Of a DNA stretch of 64,000 bases, positions 40,684 to 63,774 are shown piece by piece (within the stretch, counting starts at the first letter, position 1; each line of letters starts with the position of its first letter). Position numbers and translations under genes: made by a program. The notes under the pieces were generated by a model. That model had not been told where the DNA came from. It did no database searches and saw nothing but the letters and a program-made list of their open reading frames with translations. Where the stretch lies: contig CBDANF010000003.1 in NCBI GenBank assembly GCA_965197475.1, positions 2,464,001-2,528,000 on the forward strand. The letters run 5' to 3'. Source of the stretch: Candidatus Poribacteria bacterium (lineage in GTDB: Bacteria > Poribacteria > WGA-4E > WGA-3G).

Positions 40684-40953
40684 GGCTATGCACCCAGAGT
40701 TGACAAGCCTTTCCGGGCGTTGCCCATGTCGTTGGCTCAAGCCAGGCTACCTTGCGTCACACGAGAAAACTTATCTGCCGCTGCTTCTTTCCAGACCTGA
40801 CGGGGTTCAACAAGCTCTCGTTGCTCAAGACCTAGCTATCAACGCTACGTGCATGGGACAGTCCCCACAAAGACAGGCCGCATACTGGGAATTCCGTTCT
40901 GCTATAGCGGATTGCAGATACAGGGCACCGCTACCTCCCCACCTAGCATAGCC
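40684..40953 (-). ncRNA. ffs: SRP RNA, large (Alu-domain-containing) bacterial type
   Basis: 5' GGCTATGCTAGGTGGGGAGGTAGCGGTGCCCTGTA.CTGCAATCCGCT; domain IV TCAGGTCTGGAAAGAAGCAGC; paired ends; upstream of dnaX. Confidence 0.93.
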
Positions 40954-41041
40954 AAGCCGTTAAAGTTGTTCATCAAATGTGAAATATGCTGGTCGGGATA
41001 CGATCAGTTGCCGCGTAAAAAACCGACCTTACTCCTAAAAA

Positions 41042-41133
41042 TGGCGGAGAGAGTGGGATTCGAACCCACGGTACTGCAAAACAGCACACATGATTTCCAG
41101 TCATGCCAGTTCAACCAACTCCTGCATCTCTCC
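41042..41133 (-). tRNA. tRNA-Ser(GGA)
   Basis: Cloverleaf, anticodon stem CATGA/TCATG, long variable arm, encoded CCA. Confidence 0.95.
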
Positions 41134-41151
41134 GATAAGTATAGTAAAAAG

Positions 41152-41224
41152 TGGAGCAGACGGGATTCGAACCCGTGACCTCATCCGTGCGAGGGATGCG
41201 CTCTCCCAACTGAGCTACTGCCCC
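41152..41224 (-). tRNA. tRNA-Ala(CGC)
   Basis: G3-U70, anticodon stem CATCC/GGATG; CCA not encoded. Confidence 0.95.
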
Positions 41225-41291
41225 AAGAAAATCATAAAAAGTTAAAAGTGTAGCAAGCACCCGGAGCGTCACATAATATTCAATCAAAAAA

Positions 41292-41376
41292 CGGAGAGAG
41301 TGGGATTCGAACCCACGGTGACTTGCGCCACAACAGTTTTCGAGACTGTCCAGTTCAACCGCTCCTGCATCTCTCC
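41292..41376 (-). tRNA. tRNA-Ser(CGA)
   Basis: Anticodon stem ACAGT/ACTGT, long variable arm. Confidence 0.95.
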
Positions 41377-41495
41377 CTATTGTGTATGGTTATCGGTTTT
41401 TAGTAATCATTGATGTGCGCGATTGTTCTCGTAATGGTATGTTCTTTTAGTTGTAATAATGTTGTTAGATTAGTCCTTCTCTGTAAATTTTGGAT

Positions 41496-41849
41496 TTATA
41501 ATCTTGGTGGTTCTCCATATCTGTTTTTATAGGGGGACCCTCTAAAAAATCCGCACACGATAAGCAGGTATAAACTACCAACACAAGGAACAAGTCCCCA
41601 TAAAATATTCAACCCAGATCGGTCTGTGTCATGTAAACGTTTGATAACTATAACTATATCAGTATAAATAGTTATAAGACCGGGCGATACGAAAAGAATA
41701 GCTAAAACAGAATCTGGATCATCAGGGTCTCTTCCTACTGCAGTATAAATAAAAGCTACAAGAATATAAAAGAGAATAACCCCTATGGCATACATCCAAT
41801 ACTGAAAACGATTAATTCTACCCTTAAAAGAGAAAAGAAAACTTAACAT
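41496..41849 (-). CDS. DUF805 membrane protein
   Basis: FSFKGRINR..YW, KRLHDTDRSG, NRYG..P. Confidence 0.9.
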   Translation of the reverse strand: MLSFLFSFKGRINRFQYWMYAIGVILFYILVAFIYTAVGRDPDDPDSVLAILFVSPGLITIYTDIVIVIKRLHDTDRSGLNILWGLVPCVGSLYLLIVCGFFRGSPYKNRYGEPPRL

Positions 41850-41979
41850 TTCATTTCCAAATAATATTCTTATTTGAATTTTCGTTGTGCTTTTTGTTCT
41901 TCGCGTTCCTTGCATTCATACCCAACCAACTAACAAATCCTACCACTCTCTATACACAATACAGCCAAGAATAACATCA

Positions 41980-42492
41980 TTAACGACGGTTCTTAAAAAA
42001 TGATTTCAATAATGCGCTACTCTCTTCTGAACAGACACCGCTTACCAATTCCACTTGGTGATTCAATCGCTCGTCTCGAACAATATTATAGAGTGTTCCA
42101 GCTGCGCCTGCTTTTGGATCAACGGTAGCATAAACAACCTTCGGAATACGCGCCAGAACTATTGCCCCAGCACACATTGGGCACGGTTCCAAAGTTACAT
42201 ATAAGGTTGTATTCGTCAAACGCCAGTTGCCAAGTTTTTGCGATGCTTCTTGTATCACCAGCATTTCGGCGTGTGCAATTGGATTTCCAGATTGTTCCCG
42301 TATATTATAGGCAGCAGCTACACAAGTATTGTCTTTAACAATTATAGCACCAACAGGCACTTCGTCCTTTTCCCCTGCTTGTCGCGCTAATTCGAGTGCT
42401 TGCTTCATCCAGAAAACATCACTGTCCAAAATTTGACCAATAGGGACAGTATTTGAAACCGCTTTTAATTTTTCTGACTCTTGAGTGCTCAC
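41980..42492 (-). CDS. tadA: tRNA adenosine(34) deaminase
   Basis: EVPVGA, AHAE, TLEPCPMCAGA, FF..RR. Confidence 0.95.
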   Translation of the reverse strand: MSTQESEKLKAVSNTVPIGQILDSDVFWMKQALELARQAGEKDEVPVGAIIVKDNTCVAAAYNIREQSGNPIAHAEMLVIQEASQKLGNWRLTNTTLYVTLEPCPMCAGAIVLARIPKVVYATVDPKAGAAGTLYNIVRDERLNHQVELVSGVCSEESSALLKSFFKNRR

Positions 42493-42515
42493 AAGACATG
42501 CCCCAAGATTCTAAA

Positions 42516-42589
42516 AGCGCCTGAGAGGATTCGAACCCCCGGCCTTCTGATCCGTAGTCAGATGCTCTAATCCACTGAGCTACAGGCGC
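42516..42589 (-). tRNA. tRNA-Arg(ACG)
   Basis: Anticodon stem TCTGA/TCAGA with loop CTACGGA. Confidence 0.95.
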
Positions 42590-42727
42590 ATCTTTCACCA
42601 ACACATGGCGATCAAAATATGATTTAGTTAGGTTTTACTACGTTCAACTCAACCGACAAACTTAACACACGTTATACAGCACACAACACCGATTCAGATG
42701 GTGTGTAGGTGATTATAAGTTGAAAAA

Positions 42728-42812
42728 CGGAGAGGGTGGGATTCGAACCCACGATGGCTTTCGCCATAACTGCTTAGCAGGCAGTCCAGTTCAACCACTC
42801 CTGCACCTCTCC
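42728..42812 (-). tRNA. tRNA-Ser(GCT)
   Basis: Anticodon stem ACTGC/GCAGT, long variable arm. Confidence 0.95.
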
Positions 42813-42824
42813 AGACTTTAAATT

Positions 42825-42912
42825 TGGCGGTGGGAGTAGGATTCGAACCCACGGTGACTTGCGCCACAACGGTTTTCAAGACCGCCGCTTTCGTCCACTC
42901 AGCCATCCCACC
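42825..42912 (-). tRNA. tRNA-Ser(TGA)
   Basis: Anticodon stem GCGGT/ACCGT, encoded CCA. Confidence 0.95.
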
Positions 42913-58020: not shown

Positions 58021-60060
58021 ATGCCAAACAGATTTGTCCGTAGCATCGCGTCTCTATTTCTTCTCGGAAGCATTCTGCTGCTTTGCTGTTGGATCCGCGT
58101 TCAAGGCACCGAACGGATCCCGCAAGGGCAATTCACTGAAAATGATGCCTACTTCTACTATTGGCAAGCCACCCTAATTTCAGAACAGGGACATCTACCG
58201 GGGCGCGATATGCACCGGTGGTTGCCGCTCGGTAGAGATTTAGGGCAGACGCTCAATGTTTATCCCTATGCCCTCGCTTATACACACAAAGTCGTCTCCA
58301 CAGTTTTTCCGAACGTCACGCTTTACCACGTTATCCTTTACATGCCTATCTTATGTTTTGGCATTGGACTCGGCGCGCTCTGTCTCTTTCTTTATCACAC
58401 TTACGGACTTCTCTTTTCAAGTATAGTAGGCGTACTTCTGGCGATACTTCCGGGTAGTATAGAGCGCAGCACAGCCGGATTTGGAGACAGAGACGCATGG
58501 TGTCTAATGGTAGGCGTTCTTACTGTCGTAACGTATCTTTTCTCCTTGCAGGTACAAGATAAACGTTTCCGACTTTTGTGGACGATTATCAGCGGTTTTA
58601 TTACCTTCTTAGGAGGCATGAGTTGGGAGGGTTTCGGTGTTTTTCTCAGCGTTATTTTTGTTGTGGAACTCTGGCGTTTTCTCACCAATGAAAAAGAAGA
58701 AGACCTCTTGTACTATCTGTTTTGGATGCTCACCTTTGTGCCGATGCTCTGGCTTGCCTCACCCGCCTATCGCAGTGGTTACGGTTTTTCACAACACATT
58801 GCTGTCTTTGTACTTGTACCGCCAGTGGTAATCCTACTACTCCGCAGCTGCCGACATCTTTTCTTGAACCATACCCCTTTTGCTGAAAAACTCCGTCCAC
58901 ATGGGCGTTCGCTTGCACTCGGCTTAACGCTCTTGAGTCTTACACTTGCAAGTCGGCTATGTTCTGACACAGCTTAGCACGTTCGCGAGTACTACCGTGC
59001 CGTTGAGTGATAACAGCTTGATGCAAGCAATGACAGAGTTGAGATCCCCGCCTTACCGGTATTGGGTCGCTATGGCAGCGTCTTTATTATAGGGAGTCTC
59101 GGTTTCGTTCTCATTCCCCTCCATCTCTGGAAGAAACAAGGATTTCTCTTATCAATACCTATTGCGCTCTTTACAGTCTTTTCCTTTTTCCGGCAACAAG
59201 GTGATAACCTCTGGGGGGAACCCTTTGGTAACGTCCTTTTTGGAATTGCTCTCGCGGGGTGTGTGGTCACCCTCATCGGAATCGCATGGCGGCGCAAGAC
59301 TCAAGCCCCATCAGAACTCGTTTTTATTGCTTTCACTGCATGGTTTATTGTCTGGGTTGCGCTCTCTCGTGATGCGAAACGCTACGACTTTTTCATCGGT
59401 TTAGCCCTCGCCTTCGGGACCGCAGCCTTGATATTATTGATTGCACAGACACTCAGTGAGAGATTGAGAAGTTCTGTATATGTCAGTGACAGATTTCGAA
59501 AAGACTTTGAAGCGAACACACTAAAAACAGGAATCGCCATCATACTCCTCATAACAATAATGTGGCTGCCAACAAAAATCGCACATACGCATCGGACGTT
59601 ATATGCAGCGAAAGAGATGCGAAACCCACTACCCGGAAACAACCGTGTCAATGCAGCATTCCAATGGATGAAAAAATATCTTGTTCCCAAAGCAAAAGAG
59701 ACCCCTATTGTTGCTGCACATTGGGGGTACGGTAGCCAACTCAACGTTCTCGCCGGTGTTAGAACCATCACGGACCAGGATACCTACATACCACATTGGG
59801 TACATCTCTATTACAAGCATGTCCACAACACAACGGCGGAACGGGAAGCACTCAGCTACCTAAAAACACACGGTGCAACGCATATTATGCTCACCGGAAA
59901 AGATCCGAGAAAATCTTTTCTCCGCAGACAGTTAAGCGATGCATTTGTCCCTATTTATCCATTCGCCACAAAATTTGAAAAATCGGGGGTGAAAATATGG
60001 AAGATTCACTATCCGGGTAACATTCAGCCAGATCCGAAATACCGAGTGACCAAGTTTTAA
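58021..60060 (+). pseudogene. STT3/AglB-like oligosaccharyltransferase, two frameshifts (about 58951 and 59065)
   Basis: ENDAYFY, RSTAGFGDRD, many TM segments, AHWGYG..L.....TITD (WWDYG-like); middle segment is read in a third frame. Confidence 0.75.
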
Positions 60061-60707: not shown

Positions 60708-60905
60708 CTAAATTCCATCAGGGATAACGTTATACTCAAACCAACACCGCGTACCATCGGTTTTTAGCGTAATCGCACCGCGTTGATCCGTTCGTAGCTG
60801 CACACAATTACGTTCCCGATACCGTGCCACCACATCCGCATGCGGGAATTGATACCGATTCCCTTTGCCGAGAGAAAAGATAGCATAACGCGGCTGCACA
60901 GCATC
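60708..60905 (-). pseudogene. 3' remnant of a ComEC/Rec2-like metallo-beta-lactamase domain
   Basis: DAVQPRYAIFSLGKGNRYQFPH..V..RY......RTD..GAITLKTDG. Confidence 0.75.
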
Positions 60906-62485
60906 GTTCCTGCCGATTTTGAAAAAGCAAAGCAGACAGTGTTACCAGATGCTATTTCCTCAGTTGAAGAGGTGACGACCGACCTTGTGAGTTACCTCCA
61001 AGGTATGACTATCTTTGGTCACCCTCGCACACAACAAAATGTAATTGCGCCGACAACAATTCCGAGTCTAATAGGAGTACTCCTTGCTTCTCTACATAAT
61101 CCTAACCTTTGTTGGGATGAATCCAGTCGATTAGTAGCGTTGGCAGAAGTTGAAGTCGTTGCCATGACATCAAAATTGATCGGATACGATCCGGAACAGT
61201 CAGGTGGTGTGTTTACCTTTGGTGGAACCGGAACGACACTCTACGGAGTGAAAATCGGGTTAGAAAAAGCATGTCCGGAAACGATGCATAAAGGTACACC
61301 AGAAGATGCAGTCGTTTTCGTGTCAGATGCAGGACATTACTGTGCTGCGAATATTACGGGTTGGCTCGGAATAGGCACAAACAATCTGATTACTATTCCG
61401 ACAACTGTTGAAAACGAAATTGACCTTGAATTACTTGAGCAAGAGTTGCAAAAAGCACTCACGAATGGAAAAAAGATTGCCTGTATTATTGCTACATTGG
61501 GTACTACCGATGCATTCGGTTTGGACAATTTACTGCAAATCGTTGCTTTGCGAGAAACCCTTGTTGATGAATTTGAACTTGACTATCAACCGCATATCCA
61601 CGCTGACGCTGTCATCGGATGGGCATGGTTTGTGTTCAATAACTACGATTTTGAGGAGAACCTTTTAGGATTTCGTCCGCGCACCATCCGCGCTTTAGCA
61701 GGTGCCTGCAGAAGGATACAACACCTTTCCCTTGCAGATTCTGTCGGCATTGACTTCCACAAAACTGGCTTCGCGCCTTATATTTCCAGCCTCATACTAG
61801 TCAAAAATCAAGCTGATCTGGATATGTTGAAAAGGTCTCCTGAACAGATGCCCTATCTCTATCACTTTGGACAGTATCGTCCCGGAATGTTCACGCTTGA
61901 AACCTCAAGAGCTGGTACAGGAACTCTTGCTGCCCTTGCTAATCTACGATTGTTCGGGGAAGAAGGGTTGCGCGCTATTCTTGGACACATCGTTGAAATG
62001 ACGCAACTTCTACGAGAACATCTGGGAGGACACGAAGGCACAACCGTCCTGAATCGGGGAAATTTCGGGACTGTTACACTTTTCCGTGCTTATCCAGTCG
62101 GTGTAGATACATTTGAAATCAAACGGCAGGAATTTGAAGATGCTGCTAATCGGGACATTTTAATTGCACACAACGTTTACAATCGCGAAATCTTCCAATA
62201 CGTGAATTCTGAGGCGATGGAAGGTCGGGGTGTTTTCATCTCCACAACAGACTGCTACCGTAAAACCGCTTATGGAGAGCCAATTGTCGCCTTAAAATCG
62301 TTGGCTCATGTAAAGAATGAGTGCTAATGAAAAAGTTTAACCCGCTTGGTCATTGTCTTCATTAAAAACAACCGCACACATTCTTTACATGAGCGAAATC
62401 GTTTATCCTATCCCCGTTTGTTGATGAAGAAGATGTGAAAACAGTGGTTGCGAAGGTATTGGAAGCGAGGGAAGCAATTAGTTGA
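60906..62485 (+). pseudogene. Group II PLP-dependent decarboxylase; 5' end probably lost, MITE inserted near 3' end
   Basis: FGGTG, TLGTTD, IHADA, DS...DFHK; removing the MITE restores ALKSFILSPFVDE...EAIS*. Confidence 0.85.
62303..62395. mobile_element. 93-bp MITE with 8-bp TSD AAATCGTT
   Basis: TIR GCTCATGTAAAGAATG / CATTCTTTACATGAGC; TSD at 62295-62302 and 62396-62403. Confidence 0.92.
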
Positions 62486-62507
62486 AGTGTTGCAATATAC
62501 ACTTCAA
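62482..62507. terminator. Hairpin between the convergent decarboxylase and tmRNA-like gene
   Basis: TTGAAGTGT-N8-ACACTTCAA perfect 9-bp stem; no U-tract. Confidence 0.55.
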
Positions 62508-62589
62508 TGGAGGTGGTGGGAATTGAACCCACTTCCGGAGGAATTTGAAAGCGACCATGCTTTCGCCTCCGTCGAATCCATTCACCCCC
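62508..62589 (-). ncRNA. Minimal tmRNA-like RNA (tRNA-like domain only)
   Basis: GGGGGTG/CACCTCC-A acceptor with G3-U70; AATGGATTCGAC D-loop; CGGAGG/CCTCCG helix 2a; GTGGG-TTCAATT-CCCAC T-arm; no tag ORF. Confidence 0.75.
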
Positions 62590-62608
62590 GTGTACAAATA
62601 TAAATATA

Positions 62609-62638
62609 AGGATACCATATTCGCACCCACAATATCAA
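62609..62638 (-). promoter_or_regulatory. Sigma70-type promoter of the tmRNA-like gene
   Basis: TTGATA-N18-TATCCT with extended -10 TG, 19 nt upstream of G1. Confidence 0.55.
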
Positions 62639-62736: not shown

Positions 62737-63774
62737 ATGGAACATTGGATTGAACAACTTATTGGTGGATTACCCAACGTAGTCCTTTTTCTAATTATTG
62801 CGGTGATGCTTTATACACTCGGCAAAGGCGCAGACTGGCTTGTTGATGAAGCGGTTGTGCTTTCAACCCGATGGGGTTTAGGGAAAGCGATTATCGGTGC
62901 TACGATTGTGAGTATTGGGACAACAACACCTGAGGCTGCGGTCTCCGTGCTGTCTGCAGTACAAGGAAAACCGGGACTTGCACTCGGAAACGCAGTCGGT
63001 TCGATTATATGTGACACTGGACTTATTTTAGGATTAGCATCGCTGATTGCACCGTTATCGTTCAACCGTCAGTTAGCATCGCGCTTGTCCAATGTTCAGG
63101 TGAGTGCTGGTATTCTCTTGGTATTAGCATGTATTCCGTGGTCTTCCCCTATGGAAGTCTTTAAACAAGGTGGCGTACTTCCACAATTTATAGGATTCAT
63201 CTTTGTTGTACTGTTAGGGTTGTATATCTGGCAGTCTATCCGATGGGCAGGTTCAACAACACCCGATCCTGAAGACGAAGAGAAGGCAGAATCAGGTGGA
63301 TCAAGTACTTCCCTTACACTTCTGAAACTCATCGGGTCAATCGCAATCGTCGTAATTTCTGCCCAAATTCTCATTCCGACTGTAAGTATTCTTGCTACAA
63401 GATTTAAGGTGCCAGAATCAATTATTTCGTTAACATTGGTAGCATTCGGCACTTCACTCCCAGAACTTGTAACAGCAATTACAGCAGTTAGGCGTGGGCA
63501 TGGTGAGTTAGCGGTCGGTAACATCATCGGTGCGGATATTCTGAACGTGCTTTTTGTGGCAGGGGTTTCTGCAGCAGCGACAAGAGGTGGGTTAGTAGCA
63601 GACGCACATTTTTTCCTATTCGCTTTCCCCGCAATGTTGTTTATCTTAATAGTTTTCCGATACGGTATTTTCGTTTCAGGTAGCCAGTTAAAACGTCCTT
63701 TTGGGGTTGTTTTAGTCGCAGTCTGGCTTGTAGTACAAATCCTCAGTGGTGTTTTGGGAATAGGGGTGCGTTAG
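62737..63774 (+). CDS. Sodium/calcium antiporter (CaCA, YrbG-like)
   Basis: Alpha repeats GTTTPE..GNAVGS and GTSLPE..GNIIGA. Confidence 0.92.
   Translation: MEHWIEQLIGGLPNVVLFLIIAVMLYTLGKGADWLVDEAVVLSTRWGLGKAIIGATIVSIGTTTPEAAVSVLSAVQGKPGLALGNAVGSIICDTGLILGLASLIAPLSFNRQLASRLSNVQVSAGILLVLACIPWSSPMEVFKQGGVLPQFIGFIFVVLLGLYIWQSIRWAGSTTPDPEDEEKAESGGSSTSLTLLKLIGSIAIVVISAQILIPTVSILATRFKVPESIISLTLVAFGTSLPELVTAITAVRRGHGELAVGNIIGADILNVLFVAGVSAAATRGGLVADAHFFLFAFPAMLFILIVFRYGIFVSGSQLKRPFGVVLVAVWLVVQILSGVLGIGVR

What the first reader, a model, noticed from the sequence alone, without database searches (positions are those of the whole stretch)
62482..62638. Stand-alone 82-nt 'mini-tmRNA': tRNA-like domain only, with its own promoter and terminator hairpin
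Seen: the minus strand reads GGGGGTG AATGGATTCGA CGGAGG C GAAAGC ATGGTC GCTTTC AAATT CCTCCG GAA GTGGG TTCAATT CCCAC CACCTCC A. It has a 7-bp acceptor with G3-U70 and A73, a stemless GGATTCGAC D-loop, helix 2a, a 3-nt linker and an intact T-arm. Helix 2 is capped by a 6-bp hairpin where pseudoknots and the tag ORF would normally be. A sigma70-like promoter precedes it and a 9-bp hairpin follows. Known: these are the AlaRS, EF-Tu and SmpB determinants of tmRNA; cellular bacterial tmRNAs are about 350 nt with an mRNA-like domain, and tagless forms are known mainly from jakobid/oomycete mitochondria. Inference: both ends and every stem are intact inside an otherwise decaying region, so it may be a maintained RNA. 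It could rescue ribosomes by template-free Ala addition, act as an SmpB decoy, or donate Ala non-ribosomally.
Basis: partly seen in the sequence, partly recalled or inferred. Interest (0 to 1): 0.9.

Follow-up and report, generated by a model that had tools for sequence, protein, structure and literature searches.

The report
Conserved tag-less mini-tmRNA in Poribacteria
A sponge-symbiont bacterium keeps, next to its normal ribosome-rescue RNA, a second 82-base copy that has only the tRNA-like part; this kind of RNA is already known from a phage and from organelles, but here it is a conserved chromosomal gene.

Summary
Window 62508-62589 (-) is an 82-nt tmRNA tRNA-like domain (TLD) with a capped helix 2. 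It scores 66 bits on Rfam RF00023 (cut-off 47) and its MFE fold equals the proposed structure.

It is not a collapse or a relic:
- 22 of 40 species genomes of one Candidatus Poribacteria genus carry the same 82-85-nt gene.
- It usually sits at the same site, convergent to a PLP-decarboxylase gene.
- A TTGATA-N18-TGnTATCCT promoter is conserved upstream.
- 6 base pairs show compensatory change, and G3-U70/A73 never vary.
- Identity is 92%, against 59% at neighbouring third codon positions.
- Two genomes without it hold decayed remnants at that site.

The genome also has one smpB next to a full-length ssrA.

The kind is known: TLD-only tmRNA occurs in mycobacteriophage DS6A, mitochondria and plastids, and a similar molecule inhibits tmRNA in E. 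coli. A pattern scan found it in at least 120 viral contigs and about 25 other bacterial genomes.

Most likely it is an alanylatable, SmpB-binding competitor of tmRNA that dampens tagging. Tag-free rescue is the main rival. The function was not tested.

The 9-bp downstream hairpin is not conserved. The "decaying region" is one MITE insertion.

The parts
62508..62589 (-). 82-nt TLD-only tmRNA paralogue (mini-tmRNA), from G1 at 62589 to the discriminator A73 at 62508. CCA is not encoded.
   Evidence: Sequence; RF00023 at 66 bits; own model R1 at 103.2 bits; MFE fold.
62583..62589 (-). Acceptor stem 5' strand, GGGGGUG. It pairs with 62509-62515 and includes G3-U70.
   Evidence: All 7 pairs never vary in 14 distinct sequences. 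G3-U70 is present in 22 of 22 distinct sequences.
62572..62582 (-). Stemless D-loop analogue, AAUGGAUUCGA. This is the SmpB-contact region of a tmRNA.
   Evidence: GGAUUCGAC is invariant in 15 of 15 aligned copies apart from one 1-nt insertion. The review PMC3985003 states that the deformed D arm contacts SmpB (passage).
62536..62571 (-). Helix 2a (62566-62571 pairs with 62536-62541) capped by a 6-bp hairpin (62547-62564) whose loop is AUGGUC.
   Evidence: Three pairs of helix 2a and two of the cap hairpin show changes on both sides. The loop core UGGU is invariant.
62516..62532 (-). T arm: GUGGG UUCAAUU CCCAC.
   Evidence: 100% of cells are paired, and one pair shows a U-A to C-G change.
62609..62638 (-). 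Sigma-70-type promoter: TTGATA, 18 nt, TG-n-TATCCT. The -10 box ends 19 nt before G1.
   Evidence: Consensus scan. The motif is conserved in about 20 of 23 related loci.
62482..62507 (-). 9-bp hairpin directly after A73. It has no T-run, is lineage-specific and overlaps the stop codon of the convergent gene.
   Evidence: -9.9 kcal/mol in the window and in L089 only; the other 20 loci give -0.1 to -6.1. Not called by the terminator scan.
60840..62485 (+). Convergent PLP-dependent decarboxylase gene, the conserved neighbour. Its frame is broken in this genome by a repeat element, and its original stop TGA lies at 62483-62485.
   Evidence: Pfam PF00282; three-frame reading and synteny.
62295..62395 (.). 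MITE-like repeat of about 100 nt with terminal inverted repeats, inserted in the 3' end of the decarboxylase gene.
   Evidence: One contig of a related strain skips 62295-62395 (table 5). The genome holds 26 copies.
62737..63774 (+). Divergent Na+/Ca2+ exchanger gene, the conserved upstream neighbour.
   Evidence: Pfam PF01699. Adjacent in 11 of 14 distinct relatives.

Best explanation
This is a functional small-RNA gene: a paralogue of ssrA that keeps only the tRNA-like domain plus a short capped helix 2.

Inferred life cycle:
1. It is transcribed from its own sigma-70-type promoter with a short leader.
2. It is trimmed like a tRNA by RNase P and a 3' nuclease, and receives CCA.
3. AlaRS charges it with alanine through G3-U70 and A73.
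4. The cell's single SmpB binds its D-loop analogue and helix 2a.

Because it has no resume codon, tag frame or stop codon, it cannot complete trans-translation. It therefore competes with full-length tmRNA for SmpB, EF-Tu and stalled ribosomes, and so lowers or tunes tagging.

Shown here: the gene, its structure, its conservation under purifying selection, its chromosomal synteny, and its co-existence with one smpB-ssrA pair.
Inferred: transcription, processing, alanylation, SmpB binding and competition.
For: Family and fold:
- RF00023 scores 66 bits, above the 47-bit cut-off.
- The fold equals the proposed structure, z = -3.05.

Conservation:
- Present at 82-85 nt in 22 of 40 genomes of the genus.
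- Among 112 other genomes of the order it occurs in one, G091, as two copies.
- 98.9% of 547 pair cells form standard pairs. Six pairs changed on both sides. No shuffle of 500 reached the observed covariation score, and the slid registers pair at 43-69%. The MAFFT alignment gives the same picture.
- Mean pairwise identity is 91.8%. The adjacent gene shows 59.2% at third codon positions and 92.3% at first plus second. The mini exceeds the third-position value in 91 of 91 pairs.
- Decayed remnants lie at the syntenic site in 2 of 4 examined genomes that lack an intact copy.
- The promoter is conserved in about 20 of 23 loci.
- Synteny with the decarboxylase gene holds in 12 of 14 distinct relatives.

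Partners: one smpB sits directly upstream of a full-length ssrA whose tag is ADQELALAA.

Precedent:
- Phage DS6A has a TLD-only tmRNA. A similar molecule, chargeable or not, strongly inhibits tmRNA in E. coli, perhaps by titrating SmpB (PMC4131195 and PMC11915505, passages; the primary paper, Mao 2009, is not held).
- A laboratory TLD made of the 5' 25 and 3' 34 residues joined by a tetraloop co-crystallises with SmpB (PMC3985003, passage).

Class level: 84 of 86 unique viral copies and 20 of 20 poribacterial copies keep U70 and A73. Neither position was part of the search pattern.
Against: - No direct evidence of transcription. The only RNA-library contigs over the gene are of low depth, and one also carries the promoter region, so they may be DNA or read-through.
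- Alanylation, SmpB binding and any effect on tagging were not tested, and cannot be with these tools.
- 18 of 40 genomes of the genus lack an intact copy, so it is dispensable.
- Why a cell would keep an inhibitor of its own rescue system is unexplained.
- The linker before the T stem reads GGAA or GGAU. The resident ssrA and most viral copies read GGAC, which might alter SmpB or ribosome contacts.
- Near-universal retention of AlaRS identity fits a role on the ribosome, which would include the tag-free rescue rival, at least as well as a pure SmpB sponge.
Confidence: 0.5

Rival explanations
1. Tag-free ribosome rescuer. Ala-mini-tmRNA with SmpB and EF-Tu enters the empty A site of a stalled ribosome and accepts the nascent chain. 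The chain, extended by one Ala, is then freed by drop-off plus peptidyl-tRNA hydrolase or by a codon-independent release factor. The ribosome is recycled and the protein is not marked for proteolysis.
For: - All determinants needed to reach the peptidyl-transferase centre are kept and invariant: G3-U70, A73, the T loop and the D-loop analogue.
- U70 and A73 are retained in 84 of 86 unique viral copies, which suggests that charging matters.
- Organellar TLD-only tmRNAs co-occur with SmpB and are thought to help with incomplete mRNAs (PMC11915505, passage).
- In phages the copies often sit inside tRNA gene arrays. In 7 of 60 scanned loci a tRNA lies within about 20 nt, as expected for a part of the translation toolkit.
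Against: - No release route is evident. Only one RF-1-domain gene (a 394-aa frame) was found in the genome with PF00472, so no ArfB-type factor was seen with this query.
- The review PMC3985003 states that forms lacking the tag sequence argue against bacterial-type trans-translation (passage).
- The only reported experiment on a similar molecule found inhibition, not rescue.
Confidence: 0.27
2. A tRNA-like RNA with a role outside ribosome rescue. Candidates are a dedicated alanine donor for a non-ribosomal transferase, a ligand or decoy for another tRNA-binding protein, or a target site for integrating elements.
For: - AlaRS needs only the acceptor stem, and an RNA without an anticodon arm stays out of normal decoding.
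- The cap loop core UGGU is invariant although no known tmRNA role is assigned to it, hinting at an extra partner.
- The same genomes hold a second family of tmRNA-acceptor-bearing tRNA-like genes.
Against: - The SmpB-contacting D-loop analogue GGAUUCGAC is invariant. An alanine donor or an att site would not need it.
- The neighbours are convergent or divergent and encode no aminoacyl-transferase or integrase.
- Sequence breaks next to the gene in three relatives are small insertions, not islands.
Confidence: 0.1
3. A non-functional relic: an ssrA duplicate that suffered an internal deletion and is drifting, or an assembly collapse of a full-length gene.
For: - 18 of 40 genomes of the genus lack it.
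- MAG assemblies can carry deletions. The tmRNA database authors rejected internally deleted forms in older MAGs (PMC11915505, methods passage).
Against: - The same length is seen in 22 species, several of them single-contig genomes, and in a contig of an independent run that spans the whole gene (record 14).
- Stems are kept through compensatory changes.
- It evolves as slowly as first and second codon positions.
- Real relics at the same site look quite different, with a broken T arm and a lost 5' acceptor strand.
Confidence: 0.03

Closest known systems
TLD-only tmRNA of mycobacteriophage DS6A (tmRNA Website entry 'TLD only'; Hudson et al. 2014, PMC4131195; Mao et al. 2009, not held)
   Same: [quoted passage not shown] A similar molecule inhibits tmRNA in E. 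coli (passages). My scans show the same architecture in at least 120 viral contigs.
   Different: The poribacterial gene is chromosomal and sits at a conserved site between housekeeping-type genes in 12 of 14 distinct relatives. It has its own conserved promoter. A poribacterial-type pattern found no viral copy. Its cap is a 6-bp GAAAGC/GCUUUC hairpin with a UGGU loop, whereas most viral copies have a short CCGCAYGCGG-type cap. Its linker reads GGAA or GGAU rather than GGAC.
Mitochondrial tmRNA of jakobids and oomycetes (Rfam RF02544) and ~65-bp plastid forms of Mallomonadaceae
   Same: These are TLD only, with no tag frame and no pseudoknots, and they co-occur with SmpB (PMC11915505 and PMC3985003, passages).
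   Different: Those are the only tmRNA of a reduced organelle genome and are often permuted. Here a canonical 357-nt ssrA with tag ADQELALAA is also present in a 5.7-Mb genome.
Canonical bacterial tmRNA (ssrA, Rfam RF00023)
   Same: The acceptor stem (GGGGGUG/CACCUCC plus A73) and the first bases of helix 2a (GACGGAGG) are identical to the resident ssrA. The T arm and D-loop analogue are homologous. The score exceeds the family cut-off.
   Different: About 270 nt are missing: the resume codon, the tag frame, the stop codon and all pseudoknots.
Laboratory TLD constructs used for SmpB co-crystals (T. thermophilus, PDB 2CZJ, as described in PMC3985003)
   Same: The 5' and 3' ends of tmRNA are joined through a shortened helix 2 closed by a loop (passage). 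This is the same design as the natural RNA.
   Different: Those constructs are artificial and 59 nt plus a tetraloop. Here the RNA is a natural gene with a longer, sequence-conserved cap.

Membership tests
tmRNA (Rfam RF00023), full functional definition | Covariance-model score at or above the curated cut-off | tested here: met
   66 bits against a cut-off of 47, E = 1.7e-23, model positions 1-374. Scans of short sub-stretches did not reproduce it.
tmRNA (Rfam RF00023), full functional definition | tRNA-like domain: 7-bp acceptor with G3-U70, discriminator A73, T arm and stemless D-loop analogue | tested here: met
   Sequence and fold. These features are invariant or kept by covariation in 22 distinct copies.
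tmRNA (Rfam RF00023), full functional definition | mRNA-like domain with resume codon, tag reading frame and stop codon | tested here: not met
   Only 30 nt lie between the two strands of helix 2a. ARAGORN finds no tmRNA or tag here, although it finds the tag of the resident ssrA.
tmRNA (Rfam RF00023), full functional definition | Pseudoknots PK1-PK4 | tested here: not met
   The model's middle is deleted in the match. The fold shows a single 6-bp hairpin in that place.
tmRNA (Rfam RF00023), full functional definition | Alanylation by AlaRS, binding of SmpB and EF-Tu | not testable with these tools
   Only the sequence determinants can be seen. The complex predictor takes proteins, not RNA.
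TLD-only (CDS-less) tmRNA, as in phage DS6A and organelles | tmRNA-type TLD with a short closed helix 2 and nothing else | tested here: met
   The same architecture is seen in 84 of 86 unique viral pattern hits.
TLD-only (CDS-less) tmRNA, as in phage DS6A and organelles | SmpB encoded by the same system | tested here: met
   One smpB at G000:C3:700823-701236, 184.6 bits on PF01668.
TLD-only (CDS-less) tmRNA, as in phage DS6A and organelles | Carried by a phage or prophage (DS6A type) | tested here: not met
   The locus is chromosomal and conserved, flanked by decarboxylase and Na/Ca-exchanger genes. A poribacterial-type pattern gave 0 viral contigs.
TLD-only (CDS-less) tmRNA, as in phage DS6A and organelles | Sole tmRNA of its genome (organelle type) | tested here: not met
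   A full-length ssrA scoring 177.8 bits is present in the same genome.
TLD-only (CDS-less) tmRNA, as in phage DS6A and organelles | Inhibits trans-translation by full-length tmRNA | not testable with these tools
   Reported for a similar molecule in E. coli (passages). Not tested for this RNA.
tRNA (Rfam RF00005), tRNA-Ala | Anticodon arm and D arm of a cloverleaf | tested here: not met
   ARAGORN makes no tRNA call. The tmRNA model was the best clan match. The fold has no anticodon arm.
Mitochondrial tmRNA (Rfam RF02544) | Best match within the tRNA/tmRNA clan | tested here: inconclusive
   Lower-scoring overlapping clan matches were left out of the output, so its score was not seen.

The most novel reading that the evidence does not exclude
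Poribacteria, and independently Nostoc, may have domesticated a TLD-only tmRNA as a host-encoded switch. It would either turn tagging off or provide a second, tag-free mode of ribosome rescue. If so, it is the visible tip of a large unrecognised class of alanine-identity TLD-only tmRNAs in phages and bacteria. ARAGORN-based tmRNA pipelines cannot see this class. In Poribacteria, the tmRNA acceptor and T arm may further have been re-used to build a family of anticodon-arm-bearing tRNA-like genes.
Probability: 0.3. Interest if true: 0.8.

Novelty: new variant of a known kind. Interest (0 to 1): 0.6.

Why it matters
Trans-translation is nearly universal in bacteria and is a drug target. No cell-encoded RNA that competes with tmRNA has been described in the texts I could search. 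The known TLD-only forms are either a phage gene or the sole tmRNA of an organelle.

A chromosomal copy held under purifying selection beside an intact smpB-ssrA pair would mean that some bacteria regulate or bypass tagging with a tmRNA mimic.

The side result matters for annotation. The tmRNA database lists 9 'standard, no CDS' sequences and 79 phage sequences (PMC11915505, passage).

The hypothesis is directly testable by expressing an 82-nt RNA.

Tried and rejected
Expression. One run search and one read-laying run used four metatranscriptome runs kept as contigs (X14, X16, X17, X19). A 211-nt contig of X16 lies over 62396-591 and a 351-nt contig of X14 over 62564-918, each at depth of about 5. 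The X16 contig runs on into promoter-like sequence. Contigs cannot show ends, strand or level, and DNA can be present in such libraries. I therefore count this neither for nor against expression. It does show the short form in an independent assembly.

Rfam on sub-stretches. An E-value scan of a 401-base stretch around the gene gave only a truncated 26-bit alignment. A gathering scan of a 221-base stretch gave nothing. I could not print the 66-bit alignment.

Origin. I considered a tree of mini-tmRNAs against resident ssrA TLDs and viral copies, but dropped it because about 60 alignable positions give no power. The identical acceptor and GACGGAGG start of helix 2a only suggest descent from the poribacterial ssrA.

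ArfB. PF00472 found a single 394-aa frame in G000. This is 'not found with this query', not proof of absence.

smpB in three MAGs. The three MAGs whose only RF00023 hit was the mini (G008, G013, G019) showed neither smpB nor ssrA. They are 81-95% complete, so the adjacent pair is probably unassembled. I do not read this as the mini being a sole tmRNA.

Integration-site idea. Sequence changes right after the gene in three relatives turned out to be small insertions, with the decarboxylase gene still nearby in two.

Literature. 'mini-tmRNA' gave 0 papers. 'Poribacteria' with 'tmRNA' gave 6 papers, none with either term in its title or abstract and none opened. Mao et al. 2009 is not held, so its result is cited second-hand.

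The complex predictor was not used because it takes no RNA. The three large protein-search tools were not needed.
Full report
**What is there**

- Rfam's tmRNA model RF00023 matches 62505-62589 end to end with its middle deleted: 66 bits, cut-off 47, E = 1.7e-23. The whole-genome scan gives the same.
- ARAGORN calls nothing there.
- The minimum-energy fold is exactly the proposed one: 7-bp acceptor with G3-U70, stemless D-loop analogue, 6-bp helix 2a, 6-bp cap hairpin, 5-bp T arm and A73. Energy is -35.1 kcal/mol, z = -3.05, and 2 of 200 shuffles fold as well.
- Scans of short sub-stretches did not reproduce the 66-bit alignment.

**It is a second gene, not the cell's tmRNA**

The window lies in a 5.7-Mb, 3-contig genome (G000; completeness 92.7%, contamination 7.0%). 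That genome has a full-length ssrA at C3:701268-701624 scoring 177.8 bits. ARAGORN reads its tag as ADQELALAA. A single smpB lies directly upstream (PF01668, 184.6 bits). Record titles of matching public contigs name the relatives as Candidatus Poribacteria MAGs.

**Conservation**

Distribution:
- With RF00023, 15 of 25 genomes of the genus among 41 searched have an 85-88-nt hit of 64-70 bits. None of the 16 genomes from three other families does.
- I aligned 15 copies and built model R1.
- R1 finds an 82-85-nt copy at 95 bits or more in 22 of 40 genomes of the genus.
- Among 112 other genomes of the order it finds one, G091, with two copies, plus one weak hit of 32.7 bits.

Structure on the MAFFT alignment (14 distinct rows):
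- 99.4% of 347 pair cells are standard pairs.
- 5 pairs changed on both sides.
- No shuffle of 500 reaches the covariation score.
- Slid registers pair at 42-70%.

Structure on a model-fitted alignment of 26 copies (22 distinct), which leans towards the model:
- 98.9% of 547 cells are paired.
- 6 pairs show compensatory change: 3 in helix 2a, 2 in the cap hairpin and 1 in the T stem.
- G3-U70 is present in 22 of 22.

The acceptor stem never varies, so it says nothing either way about pairing. It does show constraint.

Rate of change:
- Mean pairwise identity of the RNA is 91.8% over 14 loci (91 pairs).
- The adjacent decarboxylase gene shows 59.2% at third codon positions and 92.3% at first plus second positions.
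- The RNA exceeds the third-position value in 91 of 91 pairs. These sequences are kin, so this is a comparison, not a test statistic.

**Locus**

Among 14 distinct relatives fetched with 2.5-kb flanks:
- 12 have the PLP-decarboxylase gene (PF00282) convergent to the RNA. Its aligned part ends about 100 nt from the RNA's 3' end.
- 11 have the Na/Ca-exchanger gene (PF01699) divergent on the other side.
- In all 25 loci examined, some of them the same genome reached by two routes, 21 hold the decarboxylase gene.

I looked at five genomes of the genus without an intact copy:
- One (G001) has no decarboxylase match.
- Among the other four, G021 and G005 carry recognisable but broken remnants at the expected place and orientation. 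The T arm is mutated and the 5' acceptor strand is lost (R1 19.9 bits in L253).
- G004 and G009 show nothing.

So the gene predates much of the genus. It decays when not needed and is kept intact elsewhere.

**Promoter and 3' end**

- TTGATA, 18 nt, TG-n-TATCCT lies at 62638-62609. Within this stretch that is no more than chance.
- The same motif, with its -10 box ending 9-19 nt before G1, is found by script in 17 of 23 related loci and by eye in 3 more. It is absent in L067, L097, L099 and L050.
- The 9-bp hairpin at 62482-62507 is real but has no T-run. It overlaps the stop codon of the convergent gene and occurs only in the window and in L089. The other 20 loci fold at -0.1 to -6.1 kcal/mol.
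- CCA is not encoded. The same is true of the resident ssrA and of 4 of the 6 tRNA genes in the window, so this is ordinary here.

**The 'decaying region'**

The neighbours are 76-97% identical in protein to those of relatives. The decarboxylase frame breaks at 62327 and its last ~30 codons continue in another frame up to TGA at 62483-62485.

The cause is a ~100-nt element at 62295-62395. A contig of a related strain skips exactly this piece (table 5), and G000 holds 26 copies of it.

The STT3-like gene is in two frames (58021-58977 and 59062-60060). I did not follow this up.

**What is known**

The 2025 tmRNA database paper (PMC11915505; abstract, outline and passages read) says the following:
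- It lists 9 unique 'standard, no CDS' sequences.
- It names mitochondria, two ~65-bp plastid genes, Nasuia, one uncultured group and phage DS6A as lacking a tag frame.
- It says the DS6A-like form inhibits endogenous tmRNA in E. coli.
- Its main pipeline used ARAGORN and BLASTN hits and rejected large internal deletions in MAGs. Such a pipeline would not pick up forms like this one.

Hudson et al. 2014 (PMC4131195, passages) label DS6A 'TLD only'. They say a similar molecule, chargeable or not, strongly inhibits tmRNA, perhaps by titrating SmpB. The primary paper, Mao et al. 2009, is not held.

Reviews (PMC3022190 and PMC3985003, passages) state three points:
- SmpB binds the TLD and its deformed D arm.
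- G3-U70 is the AlaRS determinant.
- A 5' 25 plus 3' 34-residue TLD closed by a tetraloop co-crystallises with SmpB.

I recall, without a call, that Ala-TLD with SmpB and EF-Tu supports GTP hydrolysis and peptidyl transfer in vitro.

**A wider class**

I scanned with the pattern GGGG-N5-9-GGNTTCGAC-N20-50-GGGTTCRANTCCC. It cannot match a full-length tmRNA.
- One genome for each of 185,579 species gave 55 stretches: 21 titled Poribacteria and 34 others. My own rough estimate for uniform composition is about 1 by chance.
- Of 86 unique viral sequences, 84 have an acceptor of at least 6 bp, U70, A73 and a 5-bp T stem. None of these features was in the pattern. The figures are 25 of 32 unique non-poribacterial genome hits and 20 of 20 poribacterial ones.
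- I gave 60 of the 120 viral loci to ARAGORN. Twenty hold a tRNA call (one of these overlaps the mini itself), and in 7 a tRNA lies within about 20 nt. ARAGORN made one tmRNA call, a 324-nt gene in L168 that spans the mini there; it called no other mini as a tmRNA.
- I searched five of the other genomes with RF00023. Nostoc, Christensenella, Mycobacterium and Streptomyces also hold a full-length ssrA. Microvirga shows none above the cut-off with this model; from memory, alphaproteobacteria use the permuted gene form.
- The Streptomyces copy lies beside a recombinase gene and a terminase small-subunit gene. The Nostoc copy is syntenic in three species, beside aldehyde-dehydrogenase and VWA genes.
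- A poribacterial-type pattern found 0 viral contigs and 3 metagenome contigs.

**Reading**

The RNA keeps every element a tmRNA needs to be processed, charged with alanine, bound by SmpB and delivered by EF-Tu. It lacks everything needed to resume and end translation.

With one SmpB in the cell it must compete with tmRNA if it is made. The one experiment in print on such a molecule found inhibition. I therefore put a competitor or modulator of tagging first (0.5) and tag-free rescue second (0.27).
- For rescue: the near-universal retention of the AlaRS determinants across the class.
- Against rescue: I found no ArfB-type factor with PF00472.

Another tRNA-like role gets 0.1 and a relic or artefact 0.03. 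Transcription, charging and SmpB binding are all inferred. The RNA-library contigs over the gene do not settle expression.

**Verdict**

This is a real, selected, chromosomal TLD-only tmRNA paralogue. It is a new variant of a known kind. Interest is 0.6, mainly because a host-encoded tmRNA mimic is unexpected and easy to test, and because the class appears far larger than the databases show.

Noticed in passing
G000:C3:2722700-2722767 (= L003:1504-1571, -); also L239-L251 in relatives: A second family of 66-75-nt tRNA-like genes occurs in these Poribacteria.
- The acceptor (GGGGGUG/CACCUCC or GGGGGAG/CUCCUCC, G3-U70, A73) and the T arm match the resident ssrA.
- The D arm is reduced.
- A 5-bp stem carries a 7-nt loop [C/G]UUNNCA in which the two N vary: GA, GU, AG, CU, GC, AC, AU.
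- Each copy has an upstream TATAAT. It is bracketed by a 14-16-bp leader/trailer inverted repeat that co-varies between copies and is followed by a T-run.
- The best Rfam match is tmRNA at 31-47 bits, not tRNA. ARAGORN calls only a few.
- One MAG has five or six in a 750-nt array.
Alanine identity combined with non-alanine anticodon-like loops is unexplained.
   Followed up: partly
window 62295-62395: A MITE-like repeat of about 95-100 nt with terminal inverted repeats has 26 copies in G000. This copy interrupts the 3' end of the PLP-decarboxylase gene. One contig of a related strain lacks it.
   Followed up: yes
L119-L238 (IMG/VR contigs): At least 120 viral contigs carry TLD-only tmRNA-like genes. 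Of 86 unique sequences, 84 are well formed. Most have a short cap of the type AAAGCCGCAYGCGG, and they are often embedded in tRNA gene arrays. ARAGORN called only one as a tmRNA, as part of a 324-nt call in L168.
   Followed up: partly
L068, L077, L092 (three Nostoc species): A TLD-only tmRNA-like gene sits at a locus that is syntenic at 92-95% nucleotide identity across three Nostoc species. It lies beside aldehyde-dehydrogenase and VWA-domain genes, and a full-length ssrA is present elsewhere in the one genome checked. This is a second lineage with a chromosomal copy.
   Followed up: partly
L097:6313-6395 and L099:7836-7918 (G091, another family of the order): The only genome outside the genus with the poribacterial-type mini-tmRNA has two copies (100.8 and 97.2 bits). 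Their T loop is UUCGAUU and their cap stem carries compensatory changes. One copy lies 1.9 kb from a decarboxylase homologue. The second has a C at position 1 that breaks the first acceptor pair.
   Followed up: partly
window 58021-60060: An STT3-like (PF02516) membrane protein is read in two consecutive frames (318 aa and 332 aa). Whether this is a split gene, a frameshift or two genes was not checked.
   Followed up: no
window 40686-42912: A large-type SRP RNA (184.9 bits) lies next to a cluster of six tRNA genes (four Ser, Ala-CGC, Arg-ACG). Most are followed directly by T-runs, and only 2 of the 6 encode CCA.
   Followed up: no
G008, G013, G019 (whole genomes): Three MAGs of the genus (81-95% complete) show the mini-tmRNA but neither smpB nor a full-length ssrA. 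The adjacent smpB-ssrA pair is probably unassembled, but this was not resolved.
   Followed up: partly
G000 whole genome: PF00472 (RF-1 domain) gave a single match, a 394-aa frame on C2. A second release factor and any ArfB-type protein were not found with this query.
   Followed up: no
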